Source: Candidatus Margulisiibacteriota bacterium
GTDB taxonomy: Bacteria > Margulisbacteria > WOR-1 > JAKLHX01 > JBAZKV01
Direction of reading: 5' to 3'
Assembly: GCA_041650635.1 (NCBI GenBank)
Contig: JBAZKV010000004.1
Location: 534-64,533, forward strand
Length of the DNA: 64,000 bases
Below the pieces are notes generated by a model. The model saw only the letters and a list, made by a program, of their open reading frames with translations, had not been told where the DNA came from and did no database searches. The position numbers were made by a program, and so were the translations under genes. Of this stretch, positions 2,751 to 30,112 are shown one piece after another. Within the stretch, counting starts at the first letter, position 1. Each line of letters starts with the position of its first letter.

Positions 2751-2794
2751 TTTTGTCCCCTTCCTTTCTTATTATATCTCTATATTTAAAAAAC

Positions 2795-2830
2795 TAGTAG
2801 TGATAATAGGACTTGTTGATTTGTTGATAA
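2795..2830. promoter_or_regulatory. Candidate second half of oriC in the dnaA-dnaN intergenic region
   Basis: TGTTGATAA at 2822-2830 is the reverse complement of TTATCAACA, one mismatch from the consensus DnaA box TTATCCACA. It is preceded by TAGTAGTGATAATAG (2795-2809), which resembles 5'-TAG/TAA DnaA-trio repeats. An AT-rich stretch at 2776-2800 could be the DNA unwinding element. Confidence 0.4.
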
Positions 2831-2983
2831 TCCCGTTTTTCCTAAAAGCACGGCAAATTAAAATGGCCGGAACAATTGAAACACCTTGGCCCAATCTTGA
2901 TATCCTGTGCATATCTTTTTTTATCCCCGCAATAAAAACCCGACCGGTCACTTTTCAACATGCCGTCAACAGGCAAAACACAC

Positions 2984-4354: not shown

Positions 4355-4365
4355 TGTTTAACACC

Positions 4366-4506
4366 TTATCCACAGAAGCGCCTATATTATATAACGCAAA
4401 GGAACTGCCGCAAACACCCCGGACAGCAATGATTTTAGCATATATTGACAACAAAATTTGGACTTATCAACAACATTATCCACAAATCATTTCCAATTGT
4501 GGAAAA
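4366..4506. promoter_or_regulatory. DnaA-box cluster upstream of dnaA, the oriC / dnaA promoter region
   Basis: Two perfect TTATCCACA boxes lie at 4366-4374 and 4476-4484. TTATCAACA at 4464-4472 has one mismatch. TGTGGAAAA at 4498-4506 is the reverse complement of TTTTCCACA. All four sit in the 245-bp gap between dnaA and rpmH. Confidence 0.7.
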
Positions 4507-4598
4507 CAAATCATTTCATAAATTATGATAGCACGACGAAGAGCTCAAAGCAACGGCTATAAATTGACAGGAAGAACTTAAAACGGTATAATTTAATC

Positions 4599-4739
4599 AT
4601 GACCAAGAGAACATATAAGCCGAGCAAAAGGCACAGAAAGAATGTCCACGGCTTCAGAAAAAGGAACTCGAGCCACTTCGGGAAAAGGGTTCTTAAATCC
4701 CGAAGGAGGAAAGGCCGCCACAGGATCGCGGTCAAATAA
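4599..4739 (+). CDS. rpmH: 50S ribosomal protein L34
   Basis: Read directly from the sequence: [46 protein letters not shown], 46 aa. It is below the 60-aa cutoff of the ORF track. Confidence 0.95.
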
Positions 4740-5061
4740 ACCGACCACCCTTAAGACAGAGGCGGATTTTGCCGCAGTGCTGAGAAAAGGCTCCCGTATA
4801 ACCGGAAAGATCGCTTCTGCGCGGGTCCTGTTCAAAAGGGACGGCTTTCCCAGGCTGGGAGTGGCGCCTAAAAAGACTCTTTGCTGCGCCGTTAAAAGGA
4901 ACAGGATAAGAAGACTGTTCAAAGAGGCCTTTAGAGAAGAATATCTCAATATTAATAAGCCTGCCGATGCGGTGATCTTTCCAACCGATAAGGCCATAGC
5001 CGCGAATTACGGGCAGGCAGTAGAATTCATAAGACAGATATTTCTTAAGACCTATACTTGA
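4642..5061 (+). CDS. rnpA: RNase P protein component. The start codon is uncertain.
   Basis: The C-terminal 95 aa ([41 protein letters not shown]...[10 protein letters not shown]) match RnpA. The only in-frame ATG, at 4642, overlaps rpmH by 98 nt in another frame. The alternative start is GTG at 4777. The stop overlaps the yidD start within ATGA. Confidence 0.75.
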
Positions 5062-5267
5062 AAAGAATAATTATTATATTGATCAGGCTTTATCAAAAGG
5101 CGGTCTCTCCCCTATCCCCGCCCGCATGCAGGTTCTATCCCACATGCTCGGACTATTGTATCTGCGCAATAACAAAATATGGCCTAATTAGGGGAATAAT
5201 TATGGGCACTGGCCGTTTGCTGAGGTGCAATCAATTCTTTAAAGGAGGCTTTGACCCGGTAAAATAG
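5058..5267 (+). CDS. yidD: Membrane protein insertion efficiency factor YidD
   Basis: A 69-aa protein with the CRFYPTCSDY...RLLRCNQF...GGFDPV motif of the DUF37/YidD family. Confidence 0.85.
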   Translation: MKRIIIILIRLYQKAVSPLSPPACRFYPTCSDYCICAITKYGLIRGIIMGTGRLLRCNQFFKGGFDPVK

Positions 5268-5268
5268 C

Positions 5269-5910
5269 ATGCAAATATTTATTGATATTACGCTAAAAAC
5301 TCTGGGATTCTTTTATGCCATTGGGTTCCACAATTATGGTGTTGCGATCATACTTTTGACGATAGCCATCAAAGTCGCGCTCTACCCTCTTACGCTTCAA
5401 TCAACAAAGCAGATGGCTGCGATGCAAAAGCTTCAACCAAAATTTGAAGAGCTCAAGAAGAAGCATAAGGACAGCCCGGATAAATTCCAAAAAGAAACGA
5501 TGGAGCTCTATAAAAAGCACGGCGTCAATCCCCTAGGAGGCTGCCTGCCACTTCTGCTTCAAATGCCGGTGTTCATAGCTTTATTTATGGCTTTAACAAG
5601 CCAAAATTTTAAGGATATGCTTGCTGTTTCCCAGGGGGCTGCCTCTTTCTTGTGGTTGAGCGATATTTCTGTTAAAGACCCAACATTTATTTTCCCGGTC
5701 TTGATAGGCCTTACTACATATTGGTCGCAAAAGACAATGCCGCAGAGTGCCGGACAGGACCAGATGAAGCATGTCATGCTAATAATGCCTTTCTTTATAG
5801 CCTTTATCAGCATAGAATTTGCGGCAGGGGTGCAGCTATATTGGATCGTTCAGAATATCCTGACCGTTGCCCAGCAGATGTACATAACCTCGAAGCACGG
5901 TAAGGTATAA
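5269..5910 (+). CDS. yidC: Membrane protein insertase YidC/Oxa1, short form
   Basis: A 213-aa multi-TM protein with the 60-kDa-inner-membrane-protein core (GCLPLLLQMPVFIALF...QLYWIVQNILTVAQQ). It follows rnpA and yidD. Confidence 0.88.
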   Translation: MQIFIDITLKTLGFFYAIGFHNYGVAIILLTIAIKVALYPLTLQSTKQMAAMQKLQPKFEELKKKHKDSPDKFQKETMELYKKHGVNPLGGCLPLLLQMPVFIALFMALTSQNFKDMLAVSQGAASFLWLSDISVKDPTFIFPVLIGLTTYWSQKTMPQSAGQDQMKHVMLIMPFFIAFISIEFAAGVQLYWIVQNILTVAQQMYITSKHGKV

Positions 5911-5933
5911 ATATAACCGAAAAGGAGACGAAG

Positions 5934-6566
5934 ATGGCAGGGAAAGTACGGATGAAGGGACGCACCACGGAGGAGGCCGTTAAAGCCGCGCTGGAGGTGT
6001 TGAAAGCATCAAGGGATGATGTCGAAATCAGGATAATATCCGAAGGAGAAGCCGGCGTTTTAGGCGTATTTGGCGGGAAAGAGGCCGAGGTGGAGGTTTT
6101 TCAGCGCCTGACCCCGGAAGAAGAGGCAAAAGGAGTGCTCCAGGATATTTTGGACAAAGCAGGCTTTATCGCAAATGTTTATGTTGAAGACACAAAGAAT
6201 GCCGAGGATACCATATGTCTTGAGATAAAAGGGGACGAGATCCCAAGAATGATTGGGAAAGAAGGGCAAACCTTGGACGCGCTACAGTATATTACATCAA
6301 TTATTGCCAACAAGGGCAAGGAACAAAGGAAAAGAGTTTTAGTGGAGGCCGGAGGCTATAGAAAGAAGCAGGAAAGCCGTACCGAAAAGATCGCCAAGGA
6401 GTCCATCGAGGAGGCCCTGATATCAGGAAAAGAAGTCATCCTGCCAGCCATGACCGCCAGAGAAAGAAGGATAATCCATCTTGCGGTCAAACAGAACAGC
6501 AAACTAACTTCATATAGTACCGGAGAAAAGGGCGAAAGAAGGGTGGTCATAGCCCCAAATAAGTAG
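5934..6566 (+). CDS. jag: Jag/KhpB-type RNA-binding protein with Jag_N, KH and R3H domains
   Basis: A 210-aa protein in the conserved rnpA-yidC-jag-mnmE gene order. The C-terminal R3H-like stretch reads ILPAMTARERRIIHLAV. Confidence 0.8.
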   Translation: MAGKVRMKGRTTEEAVKAALEVLKASRDDVEIRIISEGEAGVLGVFGGKEAEVEVFQRLTPEEEAKGVLQDILDKAGFIANVYVEDTKNAEDTICLEIKGDEIPRMIGKEGQTLDALQYITSIIANKGKEQRKRVLVEAGGYRKKQESRTEKIAKESIEEALISGKEVILPAMTARERRIIHLAVKQNSKLTSYSTGEKGERRVVIAPNK

Positions 6567-6570
6567 AGAA

Positions 6571-7938
6571 ATGCCCATTTCTGATGACGACACTATCGCC
6601 TCCATTTCATCGGCTCCTTCAAGTGCCGCGATCGGGATAATAAGGATAAGCGGCCCAAGATCATTGTCATTGCTCAAGAGCCTTTGTTCCGCAAAGAAGG
6701 GAAGCTTTATCCCAAATATGATCAAATTTGCACAGGCATCTCACCCAAAGCGCAGCCACCTTATTGATGAAGTAATGGCGGTATACCTAAAAGCGCCGGC
6801 ATCGTTTACGGGGGAAGATATGGCAGAGATATATTGCCACGGCGGCATCGCTGTAATGACCGCTATAATGGACTGTCTGATAGGTTTGGGCGCCAGACAA
6901 GCGGAGAGGGGAGAGTTTTCTAAAAGAGCGTTCTTGAACGGGAAAATTGACCTGATCAAGGCGGAAGCGATAGCGGCAATAATTGGCTCTAGAACACAGG
7001 AGGGAGCGAATGCTGCCGCAAGCCAGTTAGGCGGCATCCTTTCAAAGAAAATCGGCGAGATAACCGGCCGATTAACGGCTATTCTTGCGCTTATCGAGGC
7101 CCATCTTGACTTTCCAGAAGAAATGGGAAAACCCAACATAAGGTCAATAAGAAAAATGATGTCACAGCAAATTAAGGCTCTTGACGAGCTCTTGAATACG
7201 GCCGACCAGGGAAGAATATTAACAGCTGGAGTTGACTGTGTGATAGCCGGAGCGCCGAACGCGGGCAAATCCAGTCTATTGAACGCGCTGCTCAAATTTG
7301 AGAGAGCTATAGTAACAGGCATTCCCGGAACAACGACCGATACCATTGAAGAGGCGATCAATATAAAAGGAATAGCCATTAAATTGATAGACACGGCCGG
7401 GATCAGAAAGGGCAGGGGAGAGGTTGAGGCAAAGGGTATTGTCCGAACAAGGGAGGCCATTGAAAGAGCGGATATTGTTATAGTTGTTGTTGACGGAGCA
7501 AAAGCTCTATCAAAACATGATAAAGATATTCTGCAACAGGCAAAAGAAGCCCGGGGAGCGGCTATTGTAGCCCTTAACAAGAGCGACATCGGCAGGAAGA
7601 TAAACAAGAGAGAACTGAAAGGTTTCGAGACAGTCCATATTTCGGCTCTCACAGGAAAAGGTCTCAAGGCTCTTGAGAAAACACTTCTCAATGTGATAAC
7701 ATCAAAGCGCATCGACCCCAAGGACGCGCTGCTTATAAGCACCAGACAGAAAGGTTCTGCAATGGAGGCAAGAGACGCTTTAAAAAGAGGCTTTTCGGCC
7801 ATTAGCAATGATTTTTGCCCGGAGCTGGCCGGTATCGATGTCAAGGAGGCCATCTCCAGCCTAAGGAACATGACAGGCGAGGGGGTAAGCAGCCAGATAG
7901 CAGAAGAGATCTTTAGCAGGTTTTGTATAGGGAAATAA
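6571..7938 (+). CDS. mnmE: tRNA modification GTPase MnmE (TrmE)
   Basis: A 455-aa protein with G1 (GAPNAGKSSLLNAL) and G3 (DTAG) motifs and the C-terminal CIGK motif that marks MnmE. Confidence 0.95.
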   Translation: MPISDDDTIASISSAPSSAAIGIIRISGPRSLSLLKSLCSAKKGSFIPNMIKFAQASHPKRSHLIDEVMAVYLKAPASFTGEDMAEIYCHGGIAVMTAIMDCLIGLGARQAERGEFSKRAFLNGKIDLIKAEAIAAIIGSRTQEGANAAASQLGGILSKKIGEITGRLTAILALIEAHLDFPEEMGKPNIRSIRKMMSQQIKALDELLNTADQGRILTAGVDCVIAGAPNAGKSSLLNALLKFERAIVTGIPGTTTDTIEEAINIKGIAIKLIDTAGIRKGRGEVEAKGIVRTREAIERADIVIVVVDGAKALSKHDKDILQQAKEARGAAIVALNKSDIGRKINKRELKGFETVHISALTGKGLKALEKTLLNVITSKRIDPKDALLISTRQKGSAMEARDALKRGFSAISNDFCPELAGIDVKEAISSLRNMTGEGVSSQIAEEIFSRFCIGK

Positions 7939-7941
7939 AAA

Positions 7942-7957
7942 TGTTTCACGTGAAACA
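7942..7957. promoter_or_regulatory. parS: parS centromere-like site 1, a perfect match to consensus TGTTTCACGTGAAACA
   Basis: A 16-bp perfect palindrome TGTTTCACGTGAAACA starts immediately after the mnmE stop. It is extended to the 24-bp palindrome AAAATGTTTCACGTGAAACATTTT. Confidence 0.85.
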
Positions 7958-7974
7958 TTTTTAGATAGTCGGAA

Positions 7975-7990
7975 TGTTTCACGTGAAACA
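7975..7990. promoter_or_regulatory. parS: parS centromere-like site 2, a perfect match
   Basis: A second identical copy of TGTTTCACGTGAAACA lies 33 bp (centre to centre) downstream of the first. Confidence 0.85.
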
Positions 7991-8017
7991 TTCTATAACA
8001 AGCCAAGGAGAACATTA

Positions 8018-8851
8018 ATGGTAAGCATAATAAACGGCAAGGAGTTAGCGGGAGATATTAGGGGAGGCCTCCGCAATAAATTGGCTAAAATAGGCAAAAA
8101 ACCATCACTGGCGGTAGTCCTGGTAGGGGATGACCCCGCGTCAAAAGTTTATGTTGGGTCCAAGGAGCGATCGGCGGCTGAGGTGGGGATCCGGTCTGTT
8201 GTTAAAAAGCTGCCAGGCGGCACGACAGAGCAGGAGCTAGCCGCTCTCGTAAAAGAATTGAACGAAGATAGAGGAATAAACGGGATATTGGTCCAGCTCC
8301 CATTGCCGCGACATATTGATGCAGATAGAATTTTGGCTCAAATATCACCAAAAAAAGATGTTGATGGGCTGCATCCTTTGAACATGGGAAAACTACTTTT
8401 GGGTCAGGAGCCCTATTTCTATCCCTGTACTCCTTCGGGCATCATGGAAATGATCCATTCCTCAAAGATCGATCTTAAAGGTAAGAACGCGGCGGTTATT
8501 GGCCGCAGCAATATTGTTGGCAAGCCCATAGCCCAGATGCTGATGAAGGAGCATGCTACTGTTACGATATGTCATTCAAGGACAAGGGACATTAAGTCCT
8601 TTACAAAAACAGCCGACATTGTTGTTGTTGCCATAGGAAAGCCCAAATTCCTGACAGCGGATATGGTAAAGGAAGGCGCTGCTGTTTTTGATGTGGGCAT
8701 GAACAGGCTTGAATCAGGGCTGGTAGGGGATGTTGACTTTGAAGGCGTAAAGGATAAATGCTCCTTTATTACTCCCGTGCCGGGAGGTATTGGCCTGATG
8801 ACCGTGGCAATGCTTATGAAGAACTGTATTAGAAGCATGGAAATACAGTAG
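8018..8851 (+). CDS. folD: Bifunctional methylenetetrahydrofolate dehydrogenase/cyclohydrolase
   Basis: A 277-aa protein with the hallmarks VGDDPASKVYVGSK...GILVQLPLP...YPCTPSG...GKNAAVIGRSNIVGKP. Confidence 0.95.
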   Translation: MVSIINGKELAGDIRGGLRNKLAKIGKKPSLAVVLVGDDPASKVYVGSKERSAAEVGIRSVVKKLPGGTTEQELAALVKELNEDRGINGILVQLPLPRHIDADRILAQISPKKDVDGLHPLNMGKLLLGQEPYFYPCTPSGIMEMIHSSKIDLKGKNAAVIGRSNIVGKPIAQMLMKEHATVTICHSRTRDIKSFTKTADIVVVAIGKPKFLTADMVKEGAAVFDVGMNRLESGLVGDVDFEGVKDKCSFITPVPGGIGLMTVAMLMKNCIRSMEIQ

Positions 8852-8955: not shown

Positions 8956-9999
8956 TTAATGCTTAAGTATCCTGAAAAGATCGTTCACAGATACTACAGC
9001 GGCCAGGGCTAGAAGAGCGATCAAGCCCCACTGATGGATCTTGTTCTCCTGCTCAATTGGAATAGGCCTCCCCCTGACAGCTTCGATAAGTATAAAGACC
9101 AGCCTGCCCCCGTCAAGCGCCGGCAGCGGCAGCAGATTAAAAATGCCCAGATTGACGCTGATAAGCCCTATGAAGAACATTAATGAATAGACCCCCTGCG
9201 AGGCCGCCTGCCCGCTGAACTGAGCGATCCCGAGCGGACCGGCCAGCCCGGCAACGGACATTTTTCCGGTTATCAACTGCCCCAGTATGAACAGGATCCC
9301 GGCAGAGATCTCGTAAGTTTTTTTGGCCCCTGCCCAGAAAGAAGACACAAATCCGGTCTTATTCCTTTCTACTTCCAGCGCGAACCCGAGCAGGCCAACC
9401 TTATATCTCTCGTCATATTCGGGGGTAGCCGCAAGCATCACAGGATCGCCGTTCCTCAAGACCTCGATCCCGATATTTTTACCCGCGCTTTTATGTATAA
9501 CATTCACCATCGCAAGAGGGTTGCTGTCCCTGAGCCCGTCCGCGGACAACAGTATATCCCCGGGCCTTATCCCGGCTGCTGCGGCAGGGGAGCCGGCTGA
9601 TACGGAGGCTATTCTTGGGGATGTTTCGGGAAGGCCGTATACATTGGAAAGAAAAGCAAAAATGAGCACTCCAAGCACGAGATTAGCTATGGGGCCCGCG
9701 CAGATAGATTTGAATTTTTCCAGCGGAGGCTTCGATGAATATCTTTCTTCGGGAGGGCAATCTTTTTCTTCGGGGCTTTCTTCGTCTATACCGGCAAGCC
9801 GCACAAAAGCAAGTACCGGGACAAGATTCACGGAATAGACGGTATCTTTTCTTTTGAAGGAGAACAGGCGCGGCCCAAATCCTATCCCGAGCTCAAGCAC
9901 TCTTATGCCTGCCCGTTTTGCCCACAAGAAATGTCCTGCCTCGTGCGCCAGCGCAACAATAATGAAAACGAAACAGAAGGCCAGGACGGATATTATCAT
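8956..9999 (-). CDS. rseP: RseP/YluC-type site-2 zinc metalloprotease (M50 family with PDZ domain)
   Basis: HEAGHFLWAKRAGIRV is the HExxH motif in the first TM helix. A central PDZ-like region (GSPAAAAGIRPGDILLSADG) and a C-terminal LDGG motif are present. Confidence 0.85.
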   Translation of the reverse strand: MIISVLAFCFVFIIVALAHEAGHFLWAKRAGIRVLELGIGFGPRLFSFKRKDTVYSVNLVPVLAFVRLAGIDEESPEEKDCPPEERYSSKPPLEKFKSICAGPIANLVLGVLIFAFLSNVYGLPETSPRIASVSAGSPAAAAGIRPGDILLSADGLRDSNPLAMVNVIHKSAGKNIGIEVLRNGDPVMLAATPEYDERYKVGLLGFALEVERNKTGFVSSFWAGAKKTYEISAGILFILGQLITGKMSVAGLAGPLGIAQFSGQAASQGVYSLMFFIGLISVNLGIFNLLPLPALDGGRLVFILIEAVRGRPIPIEQENKIHQWGLIALLALAAVVSVNDLFRILKH

Positions 10000-11141
10000 C
10001 AGATCTTCCCCTTTAATTCGTTGTTTATTATCTGTGCAGCAAGCTTGACCGCCCCCGGAGAACCGAATTTTTTCAGCGCCTTTGCATACCCAGCCCGCAT
10101 CTTTGCGGCGCTTTCCTTGTCGGTAAGCAGCTCGACAGCCTTTGCCGCAAGGTTTTGAGGGGTGGCCCTGTCCTGAACAAATTCGGGGATAACCTCGGAG
10201 CCGACAAGCAGATTGGTCATAGAATAGTAGGGGAGGCGTACCTTTAAGATCTTTTTGCCGATGAACTCGGAAACGGCGGATATTTTATAAGCCATTACCA
10301 AGGGAGCTCCAAGGATGGTCCCTTCCATTGTAATTGTCCCTGATGCCGCCAGCGATACATTTGCCGCGCTTAATATGTCATGGCTTTTGCCCTGCACCAG
10401 GCGGAGCCCGGAGAGCCAGACAAGTTTTTTTATCTCTTTTGAGAACTGGCCGCTTGATACAGATAGAACGAATTGGGCGTTCGGCACCCTAGACCTTATG
10501 ATCTCACAAGCTTTAAGAAACACCGGGAGCAGTCCTCTGATCTCATGCAGCCGGCTTCCCGGGAACAGGCCTATTATAGGGAAATTGGGATTAAGCGAAA
10601 ACGCCCTGCAAAAATCGGCTTTGTCCAGGGACAGCTTAATGGTGTCAAGATTAGGATTCCCTATATAGTCCACAACAGCCCCCGCTTTCCTATATTCCTC
10701 CGCCTCCCGCTCAAAGATAGCAAGGATCCGGTCCAGAGTTGATGCAACGCTCTTGACCCCTTTTGAGGTCCCCCAGAGCCATTCCTGAGGGGCAATATAG
10801 TAGATGGTCCTTACCCCCATTTTTTTCGCGTATTTTGCAAGCAGCATGTTAAAGCCCTGATAGTCCACCAGAAGCAAAAGATCGGGCCTTTCCCTTTTCA
10901 GGACCGCCCTCATCTTAAAATAAGCCAGTATTATGGAAGGAAGGAACCGGATCACTTCGGTTATGCCTACGGTGCCTTTTGAACTCAGGTCCAGGAGTGT
11001 TTCTACTCCGGCGGCGCGGCATCTTTCCCCGGCCATCCCGAACAGTTTTACGGAAGGATTGAGCTTAAGAAGCTCCGCGGCCAGAAAAGAGGCGTGAATG
11101 TCACCGGACACCTCTCCGGTGCTGAGCATGACCTTGATCAT
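9999..11141 (-). CDS. lpxB: Lipid-A-disaccharide synthase
   Basis: The protein from the internal Met (MIKVMLSTGEVSGDIHASFLA...) onward is collinear with LpxB (GT19). The ORF-track N-terminal extension overlaps the upstream gene and was trimmed. Confidence 0.9.
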   Translation of the reverse strand: MIKVMLSTGEVSGDIHASFLAAELLKLNPSVKLFGMAGERCRAAGVETLLDLSSKGTVGITEVIRFLPSIILAYFKMRAVLKRERPDLLLLVDYQGFNMLLAKYAKKMGVRTIYYIAPQEWLWGTSKGVKSVASTLDRILAIFEREAEEYRKAGAVVDYIGNPNLDTIKLSLDKADFCRAFSLNPNFPIIGLFPGSRLHEIRGLLPVFLKACEIIRSRVPNAQFVLSVSSGQFSKEIKKLVWLSGLRLVQGKSHDILSAANVSLAASGTITMEGTILGAPLVMAYKISAVSEFIGKKILKVRLPYYSMTNLLVGSEVIPEFVQDRATPQNLAAKAVELLTDKESAAKMRAGYAKALKKFGSPGAVKLAAQIINNELKGKI

Positions 11142-11145
11142 GGTC

Positions 11146-12459
11146 CTAAATTCCCAGTTCGGGCAGGTCCGGCAAAAGCAGGTCGTCGTTGTCCGAGGCC
11201 TCCATTTTCTTAAGGATGCCGCGGTCGGTTTCCTGCTCAAGGAACTCTATAAGATAGGAGATCTCCGGATAAGACACATTGAGTTTTTTCTTCAATTCAA
11301 AAATTGCCTGGGTCAGATTGAGCCCCGACTTGAACAATATTTTAAAAGCCTTTTTAAGTTCGTTCTGTGATTCTGCGCTGACCCCCCGGCGCATCAGTCC
11401 AACCGAATTAAGGGCCCTGACCTGCATTGGGTTGCCTTCTGCCAGCATGAAGGGCGGAATGTCCTTGGCTATCCTGGAATTTCCTCCTATCATTGCCATT
11501 TTACCTATCCTAACGAACTGATGTATGGTGGTCATGCCTCCGATGATAGCGTAATCATCTATCTGCGCATGGCCCGCCATGGCCACATAGCCGGCTATGA
11601 CCACATTGTTCCCTATATTTGCGTTGTGAGGGATGTGGGAATAGATCTGGATCATTACATCATTGCCGATACGGGTAGTATTGCCTTCTCCAGTTGGCAG
11701 ATGTATGGTAACGAACTCCCTTATTTGACACCTGTCCCCAATGACAACCCAGCTCTTTTCGCCCCTGTATTTGTGGTCCTGCGGAGGGGTCCCTATCGTG
11801 GTGCCGTGGCTGATCCTGCAGTCCTTGCCTATCTTGGTCCACCTGGATACGACCACACTGGTGCCTATCATGGTATTGTCGCCGATCTCGACATCTTCGC
11901 CTATTATGCTATAGGCCCCGATCCTGACCCCTTTGCCGAGCTTTGCAGTTGGGTGGACCACGGCGGTCCCGTCAATTTCGATCGAGCCTTCCTGCTGCTG
12001 TGCCGGAGAGATTATGGAACACATAAGCTCTCCTTCGCAGACAGGTGCGCCGTTTACCAGCGCAACGCCTTTCATCTTTAGCAGATTTGCCCTTCCCTTT
12101 AACAGTTCGACTTCCAGCCTCAACTGGTCGCCAGGAACAACCGGCTTTCTGAACCTGACACTGTCTATTCCGGCAAAGAGCGCGACCTTCCCTTTGTTCT
12201 CCGGCTGGAGCAGCACCGCCCAGGCCCCGACCTGCGCAAGGGCCTCCACGATAAGCACTCCCGGCATCACTGGAAGGCCCGGGAAATGCCCCGCAAAGAA
12301 ACTTTCGTCAAAAGTAACATTCTTGATGCCAACCGCCCTTTTTCTAGGCTCATGCTCTATTATCTTGTCTACGAGCAGGAACGGATGGCGGTGGGGAAGC
12401 GTCTTCATTATCTCAACGGTGTCTATGTTAACTTCAGGCATTAAGTATCCTTTCTGCAA
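11146..12459 (-). CDS. fabZ-lpxA: Fused 3-hydroxyacyl-ACP dehydratase FabZ (N-terminal ~150 aa) and UDP-GlcNAc O-acyltransferase LpxA (C-terminal ~280 aa)
   Basis: A single uninterrupted 437-aa ORF. The N-terminal hotdog domain reads [15 protein letters not shown]...[20 protein letters not shown]. The C-terminal part has the hexapeptide-repeat left-handed helix and LpxA tail ([48 protein letters not shown]). Confidence 0.85.
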
Positions 12460-13228
12460 GCTTTGCGTTAAGCCTGTGCCCGGCCTTTTCAGAGACTATC
12501 TTGCCCTTTATTCTTTTCCCTGACAGGGCCATATCTCCCATTATATCCAGAATTTTGTGCCTTGCCAACTCGTTCGGGAACCGGAGCGGGCAGGAATACC
12601 CGTCCTTTAAGATCACGACAGCATTATCAAAAGATGCCCCGAGAGCAAGGCCGGCCTCTCTGAGCCTGTCGGCCTCTTCCAGAAAGCCAAAAGTCCTGGC
12701 AGGGGCGATCTCTTTTTCAAAATCGTCCGATAGGGCATCGAAGCTGGCCGATTGTTTTCCCACAAAAGAACCCGGGAAGTCAAGCCCGCACTCAATTATT
12801 AGCCCTTCGTAAGGAGCGGCGGTTATAGATGCGCCTTTCTCTTCAATGCGGAACTCCTTCTTTATTTCAACAAAAGGGGCGCTTATCTCCTGCTCCAGAA
12901 TGCCGGCCTCTTTTATCATTCTCACATATTCAAGCGCGCTGCCGTCAAAAGCGGGCGGCTCTGCCCCCTCAAGCTTGACATCCAAATTAGTAATGCCGAG
13001 TCCGTAAGCGGCGGATAAAAGATGCTCTACCGTAATAAAGGCGCCAAGGGAGGTCCCTCTTTGTGTACCAGTTACGGAAGGAACAAGTGCGGGAACGCGG
13101 CCGGTTTTGGAAATAAAACAGATCCCGCTGTTTTCTTTTGCCGGGAGCAGCTCGATCAGGGACTCTTTTCCACTGTGAAGCCCCGTCCCCTTGCGGGAAA
13201 CAGGGCCTCTGATGGTTTTTTGGAGCAT
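12434..13228 (-). CDS. lpxC: UDP-3-O-acyl-N-acetylglucosamine deacetylase
   Basis: A 264-aa protein starting [21 protein letters not shown], with an LpxC-like two-domain fold signature. It sits in the lipid A cluster. Confidence 0.88.
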
Positions 13229-13966
13229 CTAGAACGGGCTGGTCAAGCAGATACCTGCGCTAAAGCTCTGGGTCTCTTTGGCGTTGGGGCTGTTTGTGAC
13301 GTTCAACCCTCTGACATTGATCGAAAAAGACCTTGCCAGGTCGTACCGTAGGCCGGCGTTCAACTGGAACACGCTCTCTCCCGCAAAAGCTTCGGCCATG
13401 GCTATCAGGTTTTTTGCTCCGACAGGAGAAGTAATGCCCAGCATGCCAAGGGGCCTAAACCTGTTGTAGTCCGGGAAGTCGAACATTGCTCCAAAGTGAA
13501 GGCCTAGGCCGCTGTTAAAATACTTGGTCGCTACCATATAGACATCGGATTCCAGTGAGGAAGTCAGGTTTTCAACTCCTATGGCCATATGAAGCGCATC
13601 CCTGTCGTTTGAGCTTGCCATCCCGTATTTGATGTTGATAAAAACGCCTTCTTTGAACCTGTTGGTCACCTTTTCGGTCCTTCCGACGAATCCTAATTCC
13701 AGGCCGTTGTTCGGTCCCATATCGGCCCCAAAGTTGGCCTTATATGACCAGCTGCCGCGCAGATCGGTGCCGGAGGTTATTGCCGTAGCGGATGAATTAT
13801 CAAAAATATAGTCTATCCCAAGGTCCCAGTCCTTTGCCTTGAGCACATCTCCGGAAGGCATCCTTATAAGGCCGGTTGAGCCCGTTAGAGAAGTGGTTTG
13901 CGAGGCAAAAGAAGAAGAGCCGGTAAGGATCAGACAGGCACAAACTGCTACAAATACTTGTTTCAC
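13229..13966 (-). CDS. Outer-membrane beta-barrel protein of unknown function
   Basis: It has a signal peptide (MKQVFVAVCACLILTGSSSFA). Alternating amphipathic strands are rich in G, S, T, Y and N. The C-terminal Phe (...LTSPF) is a typical OMP sorting signal. Confidence 0.6.
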   Translation of the reverse strand: MKQVFVAVCACLILTGSSSFASQTTSLTGSTGLIRMPSGDVLKAKDWDLGIDYIFDNSSATAITSGTDLRGSWSYKANFGADMGPNNGLELGFVGRTEKVTNRFKEGVFINIKYGMASSNDRDALHMAIGVENLTSSLESDVYMVATKYFNSGLGLHFGAMFDFPDYNRFRPLGMLGITSPVGAKNLIAMAEAFAGESVFQLNAGLRYDLARSFSINVRGLNVTNSPNAKETQSFSAGICLTSPF

Positions 13967-15144
13967 TGTTTTCTCCTTTCAGATACCAGATTATATATTA
14001 GCTCGAGTTTTTTTGCAAGGACTCCGGATGAGAACTCTGCCAAAGCGTTCTTTGAAGCGTTAAGCGAAAAGGCCTTGCGCAGGTTTTTGTCTTTTAAGAG
14101 CAACAGTATCCTGTCCGAGAACTCTTTAAGAAGGGCGTCCCTGTTGCCGGAGGCCGCTGTGCTGACCAGGTATCCGTCCTGCCCGTCATGAATGCACTCT
14201 GAGATACCCTGAGCATCAAGTGCGACCGCAGGAAGCCCGCAGGCCTTTGCCTCCGCAACTACAAGCCCCTGCGTCTCGGTAGTTGAGGCAAAGACAAAAA
14301 GATCGGACGCTTTGTAATAATCTAGAACCTCCGGATACGGCTTCTGTCCGGCAAAGACAACATTTTTTGAAATGCCCAAGCCTTCCGCCATTTGTTTGTA
14401 TTCTTTTTCCAGGGGGCCGCCGGCGACGATCAATAGTAGGGGCGTATCGCGATACGCCCCTACAGGATCAAACGCACACAATACAATTTTAAATGCCTCA
14501 AACAAAAAAGGAATATTCTTTTCTTTGGAAAGCCGCCCGACATATACCAGGACAGGAGAATTTTCTGATATGCCCAACTCTTTCCTTATCCCGCAGGCAG
14601 AGGCCTTTCCCGCCAGTTCCATGTCTATTCCGGAGGCAAGGACATCAATAGGGGAGCTTACCCCAAAGCCCTCGAGATATTTTTTTGTAACGGCCGTCGG
14701 AACGATCACCCGGGCGCACCTGTTGCAAAAAGACCTTATCAAGAATGAAACGGCTTTTACCGAAAGAGCCCTGGGCAGCGGAACATTATGAAGGTATTCC
14801 GTGAACATGGTGTGGAAAGTAAACACAAAAGGTATGTTCTTTTTTCTTGCGTAACGCATCGCAAGTATCCCAAGCTGGAAGATAGAGTTTGAATGGACTA
14901 TGTCAAAGCCAAGATCAGGGATAAGGCGGGACAGAGGAACAGCGATCCTGAAACCCGGATATTTTGTCGGAAGAGAGGGGAATCTTATTATCCTGCTGTT
15001 GTTGTCCTTGTGGCCGGGATAATCCGGAGCAAAGATGTAGACCTCATGGCCCAGGGCCAGTAATTCTTTTTCAAATATCTCGATCGACCTGGTAACACCG
15101 CTGATATACGGCTTGTAAGATTCGGAAAAGACCGCGATCTTCAT
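13963..15144 (-). CDS. Glycosyltransferase family 4 (GT-B fold), embedded in the lipid A operon
   Basis: A 393-aa protein. The N-terminus (KIAVFSESYKPYISGVTRSIE) and the C-terminal E-x7-E-like region are typical of GT4/GT1 enzymes. Confidence 0.75.
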   Translation of the reverse strand: MKIAVFSESYKPYISGVTRSIEIFEKELLALGHEVYIFAPDYPGHKDNNSRIIRFPSLPTKYPGFRIAVPLSRLIPDLGFDIVHSNSIFQLGILAMRYARKKNIPFVFTFHTMFTEYLHNVPLPRALSVKAVSFLIRSFCNRCARVIVPTAVTKKYLEGFGVSSPIDVLASGIDMELAGKASACGIRKELGISENSPVLVYVGRLSKEKNIPFLFEAFKIVLCAFDPVGAYRDTPLLLIVAGGPLEKEYKQMAEGLGISKNVVFAGQKPYPEVLDYYKASDLFVFASTTETQGLVVAEAKACGLPAVALDAQGISECIHDGQDGYLVSTAASGNRDALLKEFSDRILLLLKDKNLRKAFSLNASKNALAEFSSGVLAKKLELIYNLVSERRKQ

Positions 15145-16088
15145 TTTTCCTTTTCGAGTTTCTTGATGCGCTCGAAAAGCTCCGGCAGTTTTCTTATAAG
15201 TGCCAGAATGCGGTGTTCTTTGGCATGGTCCTGGGCGGGATATCCCAAAAGCACCGACTTTTGGGGGGTGTTCTTTGTCACGCCCGCTCTGCCCATCAGT
15301 ATGCTGTCATCTCCTACATGCACATGAGGGGCCACTCCGCACTGGCCGGACATCTGGACCCGGTCTCCAACCGAAGAACTTCCCCCGAACACATTTTGAG
15401 AAGTGATGGCGCAGTTCTGACCTATCACGACATTGTGTGCTATATGGTTCAGGTTGTCTATCTTGGTGCCGCGCTTGATAACCGTTGACCCGATGGCTCC
15501 CCGGGCAATGCAATTATTGGCGTATATCTCGACATCGTCCTCGATAACCACCCTGCCTATTTGAGGGACCTTGACGAATTTCCCCCCGACCTGGACAAAC
15601 CCGAACCCGTCTACCCCTATGACGCAGCCAGAATGTATAATGCACCTTTTCCCAATCCTGGTCCTCGGGTATAGAGTGGTGTTGGGATGTATGATAGTGT
15701 CGTCGCCTATTTCGCAGTTGTCCCCGATATAAGCCAAAGGATACACTAGTACGCGTTTGCCGAGTTTTACATTTTTTCCGACAAAGGCAAGAGAATGCAC
15801 CCCGGGGCTGACCTCTTCAATAGGAGAGAACAGCCCAAGTATCTTTGCGAGCGCCATCCGTGTGTGGTCCACCCTTATAAGCGGTTTTTTAGAAGACCTG
15901 ACTTCTTTTGGTACTACGAGCGCCGAAGCGGAAGAGGCCTCTGCGGCAAGAAGCTTGTTTATCTCAAGGACAAAAGCAAGATCGCCCTCTTTTGCGTCCT
16001 CCAGAGCGGCTACCCCGGAGATCACGATAGACGCGTCTCCCGCCAGCTCGCCTTCGACAAGAAGAGCGATGTCTCCGAGCGTTTTCAC
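15141..16088 (-). CDS. lpxD: UDP-3-O-acylglucosamine N-acyltransferase
   Basis: A 315-aa protein with an N-terminal LpxD domain (MKTLGDIALLVEGELAGDA...) followed by hexapeptide repeats. Confidence 0.9.
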   Translation of the reverse strand: MKTLGDIALLVEGELAGDASIVISGVAALEDAKEGDLAFVLEINKLLAAEASSASALVVPKEVRSSKKPLIRVDHTRMALAKILGLFSPIEEVSPGVHSLAFVGKNVKLGKRVLVYPLAYIGDNCEIGDDTIIHPNTTLYPRTRIGKRCIIHSGCVIGVDGFGFVQVGGKFVKVPQIGRVVIEDDVEIYANNCIARGAIGSTVIKRGTKIDNLNHIAHNVVIGQNCAITSQNVFGGSSSVGDRVQMSGQCGVAPHVHVGDDSILMGRAGVTKNTPQKSVLLGYPAQDHAKEHRILALIRKLPELFERIKKLEKEK

Positions 16089-16577: not shown

Positions 16578-18365
16578 TTATACCATGTAATTTTTTGATA
16601 GTCGAGGCAAACGGCCTGCAGCCTTAAGATGGATCATCAGCACCGAAATATCGGCGGGCGATATTCCGGCGATCCGGGAAGCCTGGCCAACGGATACCGG
16701 TCTCAATCTGCTCAGTTTTTGCTGAGCTTCCCTTGAAAAGCCCTTAAGGGACAAAAAATCTATATCTTCGGGGATGGCAAGCTTCTCTATCTTTTTGAAC
16801 TTTTCCACCTGCCGCAGCTGGCGCTCTATATAGCCGCGGTATTTGTCCTGTATGTCTATCTGAGCCGCCACCTGAGAGGAAAGCCCCGAGGCCCTTTTTT
16901 CAACAGCGGTTTTTTTCTTTAGGAAACAGGCATATCTTTCTTTTGACAACAGCCCGATCTTGCGGCCCTTTTCCGAAAGCCGAAGGTCGGCATTGTCCTG
17001 TCTTAGGAGGAGCCGGTATTCTGAGCGTGAGGTCAGCATCCTGTAAGGCTCGTTTATCTCTTTTGTGGCAAGGTCATCTATCAGTGTGCCGATGTAGCTT
17101 TCTTCTCTTCCAAGTATGAGCGGCTTTTTCCTTTTGACCGTTCTTGACGCGTTGATGCCGGCAATGAGACCCTGAGCCGCGGCCTCTTCGTAACCGGAAG
17201 TGCCGTTTATCTGGCCTGCCAGAAAAAGACCTTTGATGCCCTTTGTCTCAAGGGAATGCTGTATTTGAGAAGGGGGGACAAAATCGTATTCTACGGCATA
17301 GCCCGGCCGCATTATCTTAGCCTTTTCCAGTCCTTTCATTGTTCTTATGAAGGCGAGCTGGACATCTTCGGGAAGGCTTGTGGCCATTCCCTGTGTGTAC
17401 ATTTCAAGCGTTGATCTGCCCTCCGGTTCGATAAAGGCTTGATGGCGCTCCTTATCAGGGAACCTCACAACTTTATCTTCTATTGACGGGCAGTACCTTG
17501 GTCCGGTCCCTTGGATCTTTCCGGAGAACAGAGGAGAGCGGTCGAGGTTCTTATTTATGATGCTGTGGGTTTCCCGGTTAGTGTGGGTAAGGTAGCAGGG
17601 CAGCTGTTTCAGTTTTGCCTGAGGATTTTTTGGGACGGCAAGGCCGTATTGTCCGTATTCCCAGATAAAGGAGAACATTTCGGTCCGCTTATCCCCGGGC
17701 TGAACGGCCATTTTTGAATAATCTATGGTCCTTCCGTCAAGCCTTGGGGTAGTCCCCGTCTTGAGACGCCCAAGCTTTAGCCCCAGGGACATCAGATTTT
17801 CGGACAGACCTTTTGACGCAAATTCCCCTGCCCTGCCCGCTTCCATATGGCGCATGCCGACATGAATAATGCCGTTCAAAAAAGTGCCGGTGGCCAGAAT
17901 AACGCAAGGGGCCGTATAGATGACCTGCATATTGGTCTTAACGCCCTCGACCCTGCCGCGCTTTACCAGGATTTCTGTGACGATGCCCTGCTTGAGTTCA
18001 AGGTTTTTCTGTCTTTCAATGGTGCTTTTCATCTGGGAATGATAAAGGAGTTTGTCCGACTGGGCGCGGAGGGCCTGCACTGCCGGCCCTTTGGCGGTGT
18101 TAAGCATTTTCATCTGCAGGTAAGTTCTGTCGGTGGCTATTCCTATTTCGCCGCCGAGAGCGTCAACTTCGCGCACCAACTGGCTTTTGGCCGGGCCTCC
18201 GACGGCAGGATTGCACGGCATATTGGCTATCGTGTCAAGATTTATGGTCAAAAGGAGTGTGTCGCATTTAAGCCGTGCCGCGGCCAGGGCGGCTTCGCAG
18301 CCGGCATGCCCTGCTCCGATAACAATGACATCATATGGTTCATTATGTTTGACCGCCCTAGTCAT
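16578..18365 (-). CDS. mnmG: tRNA uridine 5-carboxymethylaminomethyl modification enzyme MnmG (GidA)
   Basis: A 595-aa protein with the N-terminal FAD motif [20 protein letters not shown] and a conserved GidA core. Confidence 0.97.
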
Positions 18366-29644: not shown

Positions 29645-30112
29645 TTATAAATGATCCAGATGTTTAATGATATCGTCCGCGTAGCTTTCAAGTTTTTCGG
29701 CCAGCCTTTGCGAAAGCCCGCCGCCAAAGGACACATCCTCAACCTGTATGCCTGCCGCAATGATCTCCGTTTTAAGCTCAAGGCTTTTTGACAGGGCCAG
29801 TAGCTGGCCAAGGTCTATCTGGTGGGTAGAAGACAGGTCCTCTTTGATGTTTTGCGCTTCTATTTCTTTGAGCCCGAAGATCTTCAACTGTCCCGGGCGC
29901 AGGCCAGCATTGATGCCGTCAATGATAAGGGCTCTTTTATATCCTGACAGCCTGTTTATAAGGTCTATAGCGGAGGTCCCCAGGTCAAAATAATCGAATC
30001 TGCCGTCATCGCGCTTGCGCAGCCTATCAAGTACGGCTATCCCGATGCCGTCGTCTTTTCTCAACGGGTTGCCTATGCCTATTACGGCGGTCCGGTCAGA
30101 TGAATTTGACAT
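29645..30112 (-). CDS. [NiFe] hydrogenase maturation endopeptidase (HycI/HybD family)
   Basis: GIGNPLRKDDGIGIAVLDRL is the family signature. The start was set to the internal Met (MSNSSDRTAVIGIGN). It still overlaps the 3' end of the large-subunit gene by a few codons. Confidence 0.82.
   Translation of the reverse strand: MSNSSDRTAVIGIGNPLRKDDGIGIAVLDRLRKRDDGRFDYFDLGTSAIDLINRLSGYKRALIIDGINAGLRPGQLKIFGLKEIEAQNIKEDLSSTHQIDLGQLLALSKSLELKTEIIAAGIQVEDVSFGGGLSQRLAEKLESYADDIIKHLDHL

What the first reader, a model, noticed from the sequence alone, without database searches (positions are those of the whole stretch)
11146..12459. FabZ and LpxA encoded as a single fused polypeptide
A single 437-aa ORF runs without a stop or frameshift from a complete FabZ hotdog domain into a complete LpxA. 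The FabZ part carries [15 protein letters not shown] and [20 protein letters not shown]. The LpxA part has the hexapeptide beta-helix and the C-terminal helical domain. fabZ and lpxA are usually adjacent but separate genes. The fusion would physically couple 3-hydroxyacyl-ACP handling to the first step of lipid A synthesis, and it may be a lineage marker. The ORF start also overlaps the lpxC stop by 26 nt, which fits a tightly packed operon.
Basis: seen in the sequence. Interest (0 to 1): 0.55.

Follow-up and report, generated by a model that had tools for sequence, protein, structure and literature searches.

The report
Fused FabZ–LpxA lipid A enzyme
A real, evolutionarily conserved gene in Margulisbacteria (relatives of cyanobacteria) joins the two enzymes that compete for the same fatty-acid intermediate, one feeding membrane phospholipid and one feeding lipopolysaccharide, into a single protein; public databases label it only as LpxA, and I found no paper describing it.

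Summary
A stop-free ORF on the minus strand (11146-12459) encodes a full-length FabZ followed by a full-length LpxA. The likely start is the ATG at 12441, giving 431 aa and an 8-nt overlap with lpxC rather than 26 nt.

It is not an assembly artefact. The 120 best-matching protein clusters (54-99% identity, many independent assemblies) all have the same fused architecture. One homolog's exact sequence lies on at least 24 contigs.

Catalytic residues of both halves are invariant in 42 relatives. The linker is short and variable, with no stop and no conserved internal start.

The source is a Candidatus Margulisiibacteriota MAG, and NCBI annotates the protein only as LpxA. Cyanobacteria and 75 other sampled loci keep fabZ and lpxA adjacent but separate. 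At least six other lineages appear to have fused them independently.

Two extras emerged. A conserved C-terminal peptide (…LLxP[DE]ΦPEΦGΦ) is under protein-level selection. Marine relatives (Marinamargulisbacteria) keep the fused hotdog domain although its catalytic residues are lost.

The most likely function is a bifunctional enzyme that fixes FabZ:LpxA at 1:1 at the 3-hydroxyacyl-ACP branch point. It is a new variant of the known LpxC–FabZ type of fusion, of moderate interest.

The parts
11146..12441 (-). fabZ::lpxA coding sequence (431 aa plus TAG stop), from the preferred ATG start
   Evidence: ORF. It is identical to NCBI MFA5097302.1 (431 aa). Homolog N-termini align to MPEV....
12448..12453 (-). 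Shine-Dalgarno-like AAAGGA, 6 nt upstream of the ATG at 12441; lies inside the 3' end of lpxC
   Evidence: Sequence read. The TTG at 12459 is only the mechanical ORF start.
12010..12420 (-). FabZ hotdog domain (about aa 8-144), with catalytic His52 (12286-12288) and Glu66 (12244-12246)
   Evidence: NF000582 185.8 bits and PF07977. His and Glu invariant in 42 homologs. The AF2 model matches solved FabZ structures with target-normalised TM-score 0.84-0.96.
11968..12009 (-). Flexible linker (about aa 145-158, [14 protein letters not shown])
   Evidence: pLDDT below 50 at residues 147-152. Mean pairwise identity 29%, against 64-67% for the domains. Length varies by about 5 aa, there is no stop in any homolog, and Met occurs in only 4 of 42.
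11206..11967 (-). LpxA: left-handed beta-helix plus C-terminal helical domain (about aa 159-412). His269, His272, His291 and His307 correspond to E. coli H122, H125, H144 and H160.
   Evidence: NF003657 330 bits, TIGR01852 302 bits, PF00132 and PF13720. Alignment to E. coli LpxA. H269, H272 and H307 invariant in the 42 fused homologs, where H291 is replaced by Tyr in a few members (e.g. P0041, P0108). Best PDB match 4eqy_A, E = 2.4e-61.
11185..11205 (-). Variable acidic spacer (aa 413-419, MEASDND)
   Evidence: Length 7-17 aa across the family, 40% mean pairwise identity; low pLDDT.
11149..11184 (-). Conserved C-terminal tail [12 protein letters not shown] (aa 420-431); family motif L-Φ-Φ-P-[DE]-Φ-P-E-Φ-G-Φ-COOH
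   Evidence: P427, E428 and G430 invariant. 70% mean pairwise identity. Synonymous codons vary freely. Kept even where lpxB is not downstream (L088). Absent from E. coli, cyanobacterial and marine-type LpxA.
12434..13228 (-). lpxC (264 aa), a separate gene immediately upstream; its stop overlaps the fused gene's start by 8 nt
   Evidence: PF03331 278 bits, TIGR00325 216.7 bits.
9999..11141 (-). lpxB (380 aa from the ATG at 11141), starting 4 nt after the fused gene's stop
   Evidence: PF02684 267.8 bits, TIGR00215 255.5 bits.
13229..16088 (-). Upstream part of the cluster: lpxD (15141-16088), a GT4 glycosyltransferase (13963-15144) and a 245-aa OMP-like protein with no clear family (13229-13966)
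   Evidence: The same order lpxD, GT4, ~245-aa protein, lpxC, fabZ::lpxA is seen in L085 and L088.

Best explanation
This is a genuine, translationally fused, bifunctional gene. Its N-terminal half is a (3R)-hydroxyacyl-ACP dehydratase (FabZ, fatty-acid elongation). A flexible linker of about 14 residues joins it to UDP-GlcNAc 3-O-acyltransferase (LpxA, the first step of lipid A synthesis).

The fusion most likely arose by loss of the fabZ stop codon in an ancestral cyanobacteria-like cluster lpxC-fabZ-lpxA-lpxB. It has been kept throughout Margulisbacteria.

Shown here: the fusion is real; both halves are complete; the catalytic residues of both are conserved under purifying selection; the linker is unstructured.

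Inferred, not tested: both activities reside on one chain, so the two enzymes that compete for (R)-3-hydroxyacyl-ACP are made in a fixed 1:1 ratio and held together at the phospholipid/lipid A branch point. LpxA is a C3 trimer and FabZ a D3 trimer of dimers with inter-subunit active sites. The natural assembly would therefore be a hexamer, LpxA3-FabZ6-LpxA3. The conserved C-terminal peptide on its acidic tether looks like a short docking or regulatory motif whose partner is unknown.
For: Domain completeness and scores above curated cut-offs.

All 120 best-matching clusters, at 54-99% identity and from NCBI, JGI, ENA and Logan, have the same fused architecture and are 415-433 aa long. Exact copies of single homologs lie on at least 24 and on 10 contigs.

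Synteny lpxC, fabZ::lpxA, lpxB ... rseP / folD is conserved. The fusion also persists when detached from lpxC or lpxB.

FabZ His52 and Glu66 and LpxA His269, His272 and His307 are invariant in 42 homologs. The FabZ core is as conserved as LpxA (67% against 64% and 58% mean pairwise identity), while the linker is at 29%.

AF2 gives two confident domains, a disordered linker and tail, and pTM 0.40. The FabZ half superposes on solved FabZ structures.

Only 3 of 80 loci with adjacent fabZ-lpxA from across Bacteria are fused, and two of those three are Margulisbacteria. Cyanobacteria have separate genes with tiny gaps.

In the NJ tree of the LpxA moiety the Saganbacteria-type fused clade has 100% bootstrap support and all Margulisbacteria-type LpxAs group with 73%.

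For the branch-point logic: FabZ and LpxA share R-3-hydroxymyristoyl-ACP and sit together on the LapB hub in E. coli (PMC13477621; PMC3087551). The oligomeric states of FabZ and LpxA are established knowledge (e.g. PDB 1U1Z, 6N3P, 1LXA).
Against: No enzymatic, proteomic or oligomer data exist for this protein.

The AF2 monomer gives no inter-domain geometry, and multimer modelling was not possible with these tools.

Whether another FabZ or FabA exists elsewhere in the genome is unknown. There is none in this 64-kb window, but the window also holds no FAS-II genes.

In marine relatives the fused FabZ-like domain has lost its catalytic residues yet is retained. The N-domain may therefore have a role other than catalysis.

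The function of the C-terminal tail is unexplained.
Confidence: 0.8

Rival explanations
1. Assembly or sequencing indel: two separate genes (fabZ, lpxA) were merged by an error in this contig.
For: In many other bacteria fabZ and lpxA are adjacent, often in the same frame and separated by only a stop codon and about 10-40 nt. A single error could therefore mimic a fusion.
Against: All 120 best-matching clusters, down to 54% identity and from four data sources, are fused. Exact homolog sequences recur on at least 24 contigs from different samples. There is no stop in the linker of any of 42 homologs despite free sequence and length variation. NCBI's independent gene call is identical.
Confidence: 0.01
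2. The ORF is fused, but two separate proteins are made, either by internal translation initiation at the linker or by proteolytic cleavage there.
For: The linker is flexible and exposed. An in-frame GTG (Val161) lies at the start of the LpxA part.
Against: No Shine-Dalgarno sequence precedes that GTG. No Met or other start is conserved in the linker (Met in 4 of 42). If separate proteins were favoured, a stop codon would be expected to reappear in some of the more than 120 lineages, and none is seen.
Confidence: 0.06
3. The FabZ moiety is not the housekeeping dehydratase. It acts as a lipid-A-dedicated or non-catalytic module for LpxA (acyl-ACP capture or presentation, or an oligomerisation scaffold), and a separate FabZ or FabA elsewhere serves fatty-acid synthesis.
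For: Of 26 Marinamargulisbacteria-type fused proteins, 17 lack the catalytic His and 8 the Glu, yet all keep an N-domain of about 140 aa. That domain is still confidently predicted as a FabZ-like hotdog (pLDDT 80-97; target-normalised TM-score 0.75-0.84 to FabZ structures). These genes are abundant and real: P0320 lies on at least 23 contigs.
Against: In the window's protein and all 42 Saganbacteria-type homologs, His52, Glu66 and 31 FabZ positions in total are invariant, and the domain is the most conserved part of the protein apart from the short C-terminal tail. That is typical of an active enzyme. No second FabZ is found in the window.
Confidence: 0.15

Closest known systems
Bifunctional LpxC/FabZ (NCBIfam NF009667 / PRK13188; Bacteroidota, Chlorobi, Verrucomicrobia; Opiyo et al. 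2010, PMC3087551)
   Same: It is a fusion of FabZ to a neighbouring early lipid A enzyme from the same conserved cluster. It ties the phospholipid/LPS branch point to lipid A synthesis in one polypeptide. I saw it here in L005 and L039.
   Different: The partner and the order differ. In LpxC/FabZ, FabZ is C-terminal to LpxC, the committed step. Here FabZ is N-terminal to LpxA, its direct competitor for substrate, and lpxC is a separate gene. The window protein matches NF009667 only over the FabZ part: 179 bits against a cut-off of 465.
Stand-alone FabZ (NF000582 / TIGR01750; e.g. PDB 6N3P, 1U1Z)
   Same: Full-length match, catalytic His and Glu, and hotdog fold.
   Different: It has no free C-terminus and continues into LpxA. 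The oligomeric consequences are unknown.
Stand-alone LpxA (NF003657 / TIGR01852; e.g. PDB 1LXA, 4EQY)
   Same: Full-length match, beta-helix plus helical domain, and the catalytic His cluster. It sits in an lpxC/lpxB/lpxD context.
   Different: It carries an N-terminal FabZ domain and a 19-residue C-terminal extension (acidic spacer plus conserved tail). The extension is absent from E. coli and cyanobacterial LpxA.
Cyanobacterial lpxD-lpxC-fabZ-lpxA-lpxB cluster (PMC3087551)
   Same: Same gene order. Cyanobacteria are the sister phylum of the source organism.
   Different: In cyanobacteria fabZ and lpxA are separate, with a stop codon and short spacer between them (L006 Okeania, L011 Trichocoleus).

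Membership tests
FabZ (3-hydroxyacyl-ACP dehydratase) | Full-length match to the equivalog model above its curated cut-off | tested here: met
   NF000582 185.8 bits (cut-off 113), profile 2-136 of 137; TIGR01750 176.2 bits (cut-off 155.15).
FabZ (3-hydroxyacyl-ACP dehydratase) | Catalytic His (E. coli H54) and Glu (E. coli E68) | tested here: met
   His52 and Glu66 align to the E. coli residues and are invariant in 42 homologs.
FabZ (3-hydroxyacyl-ACP dehydratase) | Hotdog fold | tested here: met
   AF2 pLDDT mostly 80-95 over residues 1-144. Foldseek target-normalised TM-score 0.84-0.96 to FabZ crystal structures.
FabZ (3-hydroxyacyl-ACP dehydratase) | Dehydratase activity; dimer-based active site and hexamer | not testable with these tools
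   Needs an enzyme assay and multimer modelling or biophysics.
LpxA (acyl-ACP--UDP-GlcNAc O-acyltransferase) | Full-length match to the equivalog model above its curated cut-off | tested here: met
   NF003657 330 bits (cut-off 226), profile 4-261 of 264; TIGR01852 302.3 bits (cut-off 231).
LpxA (acyl-ACP--UDP-GlcNAc O-acyltransferase) | Hexapeptide beta-helix plus LpxA-specific C-terminal helical domain | tested here: met
   PF00132 (4 stretches) and PF13720 85.9 bits, residues 333-415.
LpxA (acyl-ACP--UDP-GlcNAc O-acyltransferase) | Catalytic base His125 and neighbouring His122, His144 and His160 (E. coli numbering) | tested here: met
   H272, H269, H291 and H307 align to them. H269, H272 and H307 are invariant in the 42-sequence family alignment; H291 is Tyr in a few members.
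LpxA (acyl-ACP--UDP-GlcNAc O-acyltransferase) | Genomic association with other lpx genes | tested here: met
   lpxD, lpxC and lpxB lie in the same cluster.
LpxA (acyl-ACP--UDP-GlcNAc O-acyltransferase) | Acyltransferase activity and acyl-chain selectivity | not testable with these tools
   The only hint is that the position equivalent to the E. coli G173 'ruler' is Gly here (Ala in 26, Gly in 14, Ser in 2 of the family). By analogy this suggests a long chain (C14 or longer).
Bifunctional LpxC/FabZ (NF009667) | LpxC domain fused N-terminally to FabZ in one chain, scoring above the cut-off | tested here: not met
   179.3 bits against a cut-off of 465, with only profile positions 318-461 (the FabZ part) matched. 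lpxC is a separate ORF with its own stop.
Margulisbacteria (Saganbacteria-type) FabZ-LpxA fusion family, defined here | Single ORF; short variable linker; C-terminal acidic spacer plus the ...P[DE]ΦPEΦGΦ tail | tested here: met
   The window protein clusters at 99% identity with P0001 and lies inside the clade with 100% bootstrap support. Its tail is [12 protein letters not shown].

The most novel reading that the evidence does not exclude
The fusion is not just a convenience of operon packing. It builds an obligate LpxA3-FabZ6-LpxA3 particle that partitions (R)-3-hydroxyacyl-ACP between phospholipid and lipid A. On this reading the hotdog domain also has a non-catalytic role for LpxA, such as acyl-ACP capture or scaffolding, which would explain why Marinamargulisbacteria retain it after its catalytic residues are lost. 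The conserved tethered C-terminal peptide would be a docking or degradation signal. It would replace the LapB/FtsH-LpxC control circuit of proteobacteria; note that LpxC here is short (264 aa) and lacks the C-terminal region that carries the FtsH degron in E. coli.
Probability: 0.2. Interest if true: 0.7.

Novelty: new variant of a known kind. Interest (0 to 1): 0.45.

Why it matters
How diderm bacteria balance phospholipid against LPS synthesis at the (R)-3-hydroxyacyl-ACP branch point is mostly understood from E. coli, where it works through LapB/FtsH control of LpxC and genetic interplay between fabZ and lpxA/lpxC.

A phylum-wide natural covalent fusion of the two competing enzymes acts as a 'Rosetta-stone' argument that FabZ and LpxA work side by side. 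It offers a stable object for structural work on a FabZ-LpxA-ACP assembly and points to a different control logic in a deep-branching lineage next to Cyanobacteria.

Practically, hundreds of database entries are under-annotated as plain LpxA or as 'hypothetical protein'. As a result, pathway reconstructions for these genomes may wrongly report FabZ as missing.

The catalytically dead FabZ domain retained in marine relatives is a candidate pseudoenzyme module.

Tried and rejected
(1) The genome-contig scan seemed to show the protein matched end to end in 80 loci from many phyla. My frame and stop check showed that 77 of them are simply adjacent separate genes joined by tblastn.

(2) I tested whether the C-terminal tail reflects a DNA signal, such as an RBS for lpxB. 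I rejected this because synonymous codons vary freely and the tail persists where lpxB is not downstream.

(3) I looked for the tail motif on neighbouring proteins in the window and 8 related loci. It occurs only on the fused protein.

(4) I looked for a second FabZ in the window with a family HMM against six-frame ORFs. None was found. Pfam annotation of most of the other long ORFs (200 aa or more) found no FAS-II genes.

(5) I checked for internal initiation at the linker. No conserved start or SD was found.

(6) The AF2 monomer gave no inter-domain orientation and did not dock the tail.

(7) Literature searches for a FabZ-LpxA fusion (one search failed on syntax) found no description of one. 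The 'fabZ-lpxA' hit I read (PMC12152623) was a plasmid construct, and the Opiyo 2010 hit (PMC3087551) referred to gene-cluster order.

(8) The first NJ tree attempt timed out and was redone with numpy distances.

(9) Rfam and tRNA scans of the window found only tRNA-Gln, which is irrelevant here.
Full report
**1. Observation**

The ORF listing shows a single 437-aa ORF at 11146..12459 on the minus strand.

Pfam finds FabA (aa 21-143), Hexapep repeats and the LpxA-specific Acetyltransf_11 domain (aa 333-415). NCBIfam equivalog models match both halves end to end and above their curated cut-offs:
- FabZ, NF000582: 185.8 bits against a cut-off of 113, covering profile positions 2-136 of 137.
- LpxA, NF003657: 330 bits against a cut-off of 226, covering 4-261 of 264.

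The bifunctional LpxC/FabZ model NF009667 is matched only over its FabZ part and falls far below its cut-off (179 against 465 bits).

One detail needs correcting. The TTG at 12459 is only the mechanical ORF start. The ATG at 12441 has an AAAGGA Shine-Dalgarno 6 nt upstream, matches homolog N-termini, and is the start NCBI uses for the identical protein (431 aa). The overlap with the lpxC stop is then 8 nt (ATGCCTGA), not 26. lpxB begins 4 nt after the fused gene's stop.

**2. Real fusion or artefact?**

The search for homologous proteins with the 431-aa product returned 120 best clusters. All are 415-433 aa, all carry FabA + Hexapep + Acetyltransf_11, and they span 54-99% identity. They come from NCBI, JGI, ENA and Logan assemblies.

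The window's protein is exactly NCBI MFA5097302.1 from a Candidatus Margulisiibacteriota MAG and is annotated only as LpxA. Named relatives are Candidatus Saganbacteria, candidate division WOR-1 and Margulisbacteria.

The exact sequence of one 57%-identical homolog (P0097) lies on at least 24 contigs from independent samples, and P0020 lies on 10.

In 42 aligned homologs the junction never contains a stop. It varies in sequence (29% mean pairwise identity) and in length (by about 5 residues), and has no conserved Met (4 of 42). An assembly indel is excluded.

**3. Anatomy**

Aligning to E. coli FabZ and LpxA gives these correspondences:
- FabZ His52 and Glu66 match E. coli H54 and E68.
- LpxA His269, His272, His291 and His307 match E. 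coli H122, H125, H144 and H160.
- Q221, D222 and R351 match E. coli Q73, D74 and R204.

His52, Glu66, His269, His272, His307, Q221, D222 and R351 are all invariant in the 42-sequence alignment; His291 is replaced by Tyr in a few members.

Mean pairwise identity by region:

| Region | Identity |
|---|---|
| FabZ core | 67% |
| Linker | 29% |
| LpxA beta-helix | 64% |
| LpxA C-terminal domain | 58% |
| Acidic spacer | 40% |
| Last 12 residues | 70% |

E. coli FabZ would end at about residue 147 and E. coli LpxA would begin at about residue 155. The fusion is therefore essentially the two proteins butted together with about 7 extra residues.

AF2 gives two confident domains. The linker (147-152) and the tail (410-431) are below pLDDT 50, and pTM is 0.40, so there is no fixed inter-domain orientation. 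The FabZ half superposes on FabZ crystal structures with target-normalised TM-score 0.84-0.96. No PDB chain spans both domains.

**4. The C-terminal tail**

After the LpxA helical domain come a variable acidic spacer (7-17 aa) and a strongly conserved terminal peptide. The family motif is L-Φ-Φ-P-[DE]-Φ-P-E-Φ-G-Φ-COOH, and here it reads [12 protein letters not shown].
- P427, E428 and G430 are invariant.
- Codon comparison across 8 divergent genes shows free synonymous variation: 4 Pro codons, 3 Gly codons, and 6-7 different codons at the Leu/Ile positions. The constraint is therefore on the protein.
- The tail persists in L088, where the downstream gene is a convergent OTCase rather than lpxB.
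- It is absent from E. coli, cyanobacterial and marine-type LpxA.
- It is found on no neighbouring protein.

Its function is unexplained. A tethered short linear motif, for docking or as a degron, is the best guess.

**5. Context**

The gene order on the minus strand is lpxD, a GT4 glycosyltransferase, a 245-aa OMP-like protein, lpxC, fabZ::lpxA, lpxB and rseP, with folD on the opposite strand. The same order recurs in related genomes.

The cluster sits between mnmE and mnmG, next to yidC/jag and dnaA/dnaN, so it is close to the replication origin.

No second FabZ exists in the 64-kb window, and no FAS-II genes were found among the ORFs I annotated. Whether the fused FabZ is the only one in the cell remains open.

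**6. Distribution and origin**

A scan of GTDB species representatives returned 80 loci with adjacent fabZ-lpxA from many phyla. Testing frame and stop codons showed that only 3 are fused: WOR-1 (L001), Margulisiibacteriota (L002) and an 'uncultured Endomicrobia' MAG (L015).

Cyanobacteria (Okeania, Trichocoleus) have separate genes with a stop and a short spacer. [quoted passage not shown]

The exhaustive search of 50%-identity representatives collapses the whole Saganbacteria-type family into one representative. It also shows about 17 other fused representatives.

An NJ tree of the LpxA moiety (71 sequences, 256 columns, 100 bootstraps) shows the following:
- The Saganbacteria-type fused clade has 100% support.
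- A Marinamargulisbacteria-type fused clade has 76% support.
- All Margulisbacteria-type LpxAs group together with 73% support.
- The other fused types sit with stand-alone LpxAs of their own phyla (Endomicrobiia, Armatimonadota, Phycisphaerales, proteobacteria and others).

The fusion is therefore probably ancestral in Margulisbacteria and has arisen independently at least six times elsewhere. The Endomicrobia type is seen twice (L015 and P0129, 80% identical). One representative, P0124, has the architecture FabZ-FabZ-LpxA.

**7. A degenerate version in marine relatives**

Searching with P0134 identified its group as Candidatus Marinamargulisbacteria.

Of 26 fused proteins of this type, 17 lack the FabZ catalytic His and 8 lack the Glu, and many have no Pfam FabA hit. 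All keep an N-domain of about 140 aa. All keep the LpxA His residues, apart from one H307Y change. None has the PELGI tail.

P0320, which has lost both His and Glu, occurs on at least 23 contigs. Its N-domain is still confidently modelled as a hotdog (pLDDT about 80-97), and its best structural matches are FabZ (target-normalised TM-score 0.75-0.84 at 18-26% identity). One caveat: the input alignment included members with intact FabZ domains.

This suggests that the fused hotdog domain can serve LpxA in a non-catalytic way. That idea is relevant to the window's protein but is not demonstrated for it.

**8. How it most likely works**

Shown: one chain carries two complete domains with intact active sites, joined by a flexible linker, and is conserved across a phylum.

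Established knowledge:
- FabZ and LpxA both use (R)-3-hydroxyacyl-ACP, the branch point between phospholipid and lipid A synthesis.
- In E. coli both sit on the LapB hub (PMC13477621; PMC3087551).
- FabZ is a trimer of dimers with active sites at the dimer interface (e.g. PDB 1U1Z, 6N3P).
- LpxA is a trimer with inter-subunit active sites (PDB 1LXA).

Inference: the fusion enforces 1:1 synthesis and co-localisation of the two competitors. By symmetry it probably assembles as LpxA3-FabZ6-LpxA3. This is not classical channelling, because the two reactions are alternatives rather than consecutive steps. FabZ's reversibility could, however, let it buffer the 3-hydroxyacyl-ACP pool next to LpxA.

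LpxC here is short: 264 aa, matching TIGR00325 positions 1-273 of 297. It lacks the C-terminal region that in E. coli carries the FtsH degradation signal (my own knowledge). Regulation is therefore likely to differ from the proteobacterial model.

**9. Comparison with what is known, and novelty**

The closest described system is the LpxC/FabZ fusion of Bacteroidota, Chlorobi and Verrucomicrobia (NF009667; PMC3087551). The window protein fails that family's defining feature, because it has no LpxC domain and lpxC is a separate gene.

There is no NCBIfam model for a FabZ/LpxA bifunctional protein. Sources name these proteins simply LpxA or 'hypothetical protein'. Five literature searches found no description of the fusion (papers read).

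The sequences themselves have long been public. I therefore rate this as a new variant of a known kind, not as categorically new.

**10. Verdict**

The finding is correct and robust. The functional interpretation is reasonable but untested. Interest is moderate (0.45). It is raised somewhat by three things: phylum-wide conservation, the unexplained conserved C-terminal peptide, and the retained pseudo-FabZ domain in marine relatives.

Noticed in passing
window 11149-11184 (-), last 12 codons of the fused gene: A conserved C-terminal peptide [12 protein letters not shown] follows a variable acidic spacer. The family motif is ...P[DE]ΦPEΦGΦ-COOH. It is conserved at the protein level with free synonymous change, is absent from E. 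coli, cyanobacterial and marine-type LpxA, and is not found on neighbouring proteins. Its partner and function are unknown.
   Followed up: partly
L089/L090 10001-11230 (P0320); L091 10001-11233 (P0134); L092 10001-11224 (P0306): Marinamargulisbacteria carry a fused protein whose FabZ-like N-domain has lost the catalytic His (17 of 26) and/or Glu (8 of 26) and often has no Pfam FabA hit. It is still predicted to be a FabZ-like hotdog. This is a candidate pseudoenzyme module attached to an intact LpxA. The genes lie away from lpxC.
   Followed up: partly
L015 3975-5279 (+), and protein P0129: There is an independent FabZ-LpxA fusion in an 'uncultured Endomicrobia' MAG; the two examples are 80% identical. 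Its linker is different and it has no tail. A related Endomicrobiia genome (L039) instead has the classic LpxC-FabZ fusion with a separate lpxA.
   Followed up: partly
protein P0124 (586 aa; from the representative search, no locus): This protein has a tandem FabZ-FabZ-LpxA architecture with a proteobacteria-like LpxA end (RSTRGIVR). An intramolecular FabZ pseudo-dimer on an LpxA trimer would give FabZ6-LpxA3, which fits the symmetry argument. It is a single representative and its context was not examined.
   Followed up: no
window 1611-8851 and 16578-18365: The lipid A cluster is origin-proximal. dnaN (1611-2750, -), dnaA (2984-4354, -), yidC, jag, mnmE and folD lie on one side and mnmG on the other. 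The 4354-5269 gap, a possible site for oriC or rpmH/rnpA, was not examined.
   Followed up: no
window 12434-13228 (-): LpxC is short (264 aa; it matches TIGR00325 positions 1-273 of 297). It lacks the C-terminal region that in E. coli bears the FtsH degron, which hints at a different way of controlling lipid A flux.
   Followed up: no
window 13229-15144 (-): A GT4 glycosyltransferase and a 245-aa protein with only a weak OMP beta-barrel hit sit between lpxD and lpxC. The same insertion is conserved in L085 and L088, so both are probably part of the envelope cluster. Their function is unknown.
   Followed up: partly
window 24443-26770 (-) and 27344-29116 (-): Two adjacent ORFs both encode ribonucleotide reductase large-subunit domains (775 aa with a TSCPD domain; 590 aa without). 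This may be a duplication or a split or paralogous pair.
   Followed up: no
window 30096-34095 (-): There is a four-gene NiFe hydrogenase cluster: large subunit, Oxidored_q6 small subunit, an FAD/NAD-binding subunit and a 4Fe-4S subunit. An H+-pyrophosphatase (35493-37748) and enolase follow. This fits the hydrogen-based metabolism reported for Margulisbacteria and Saganbacteria (PMC6349859).
   Followed up: no
window 6741-8015 (-): A 424-aa mechanical ORF lies antisense to the Pfam-supported mnmE gene (6571-7938, +). It is almost certainly not a gene.
   Followed up: no
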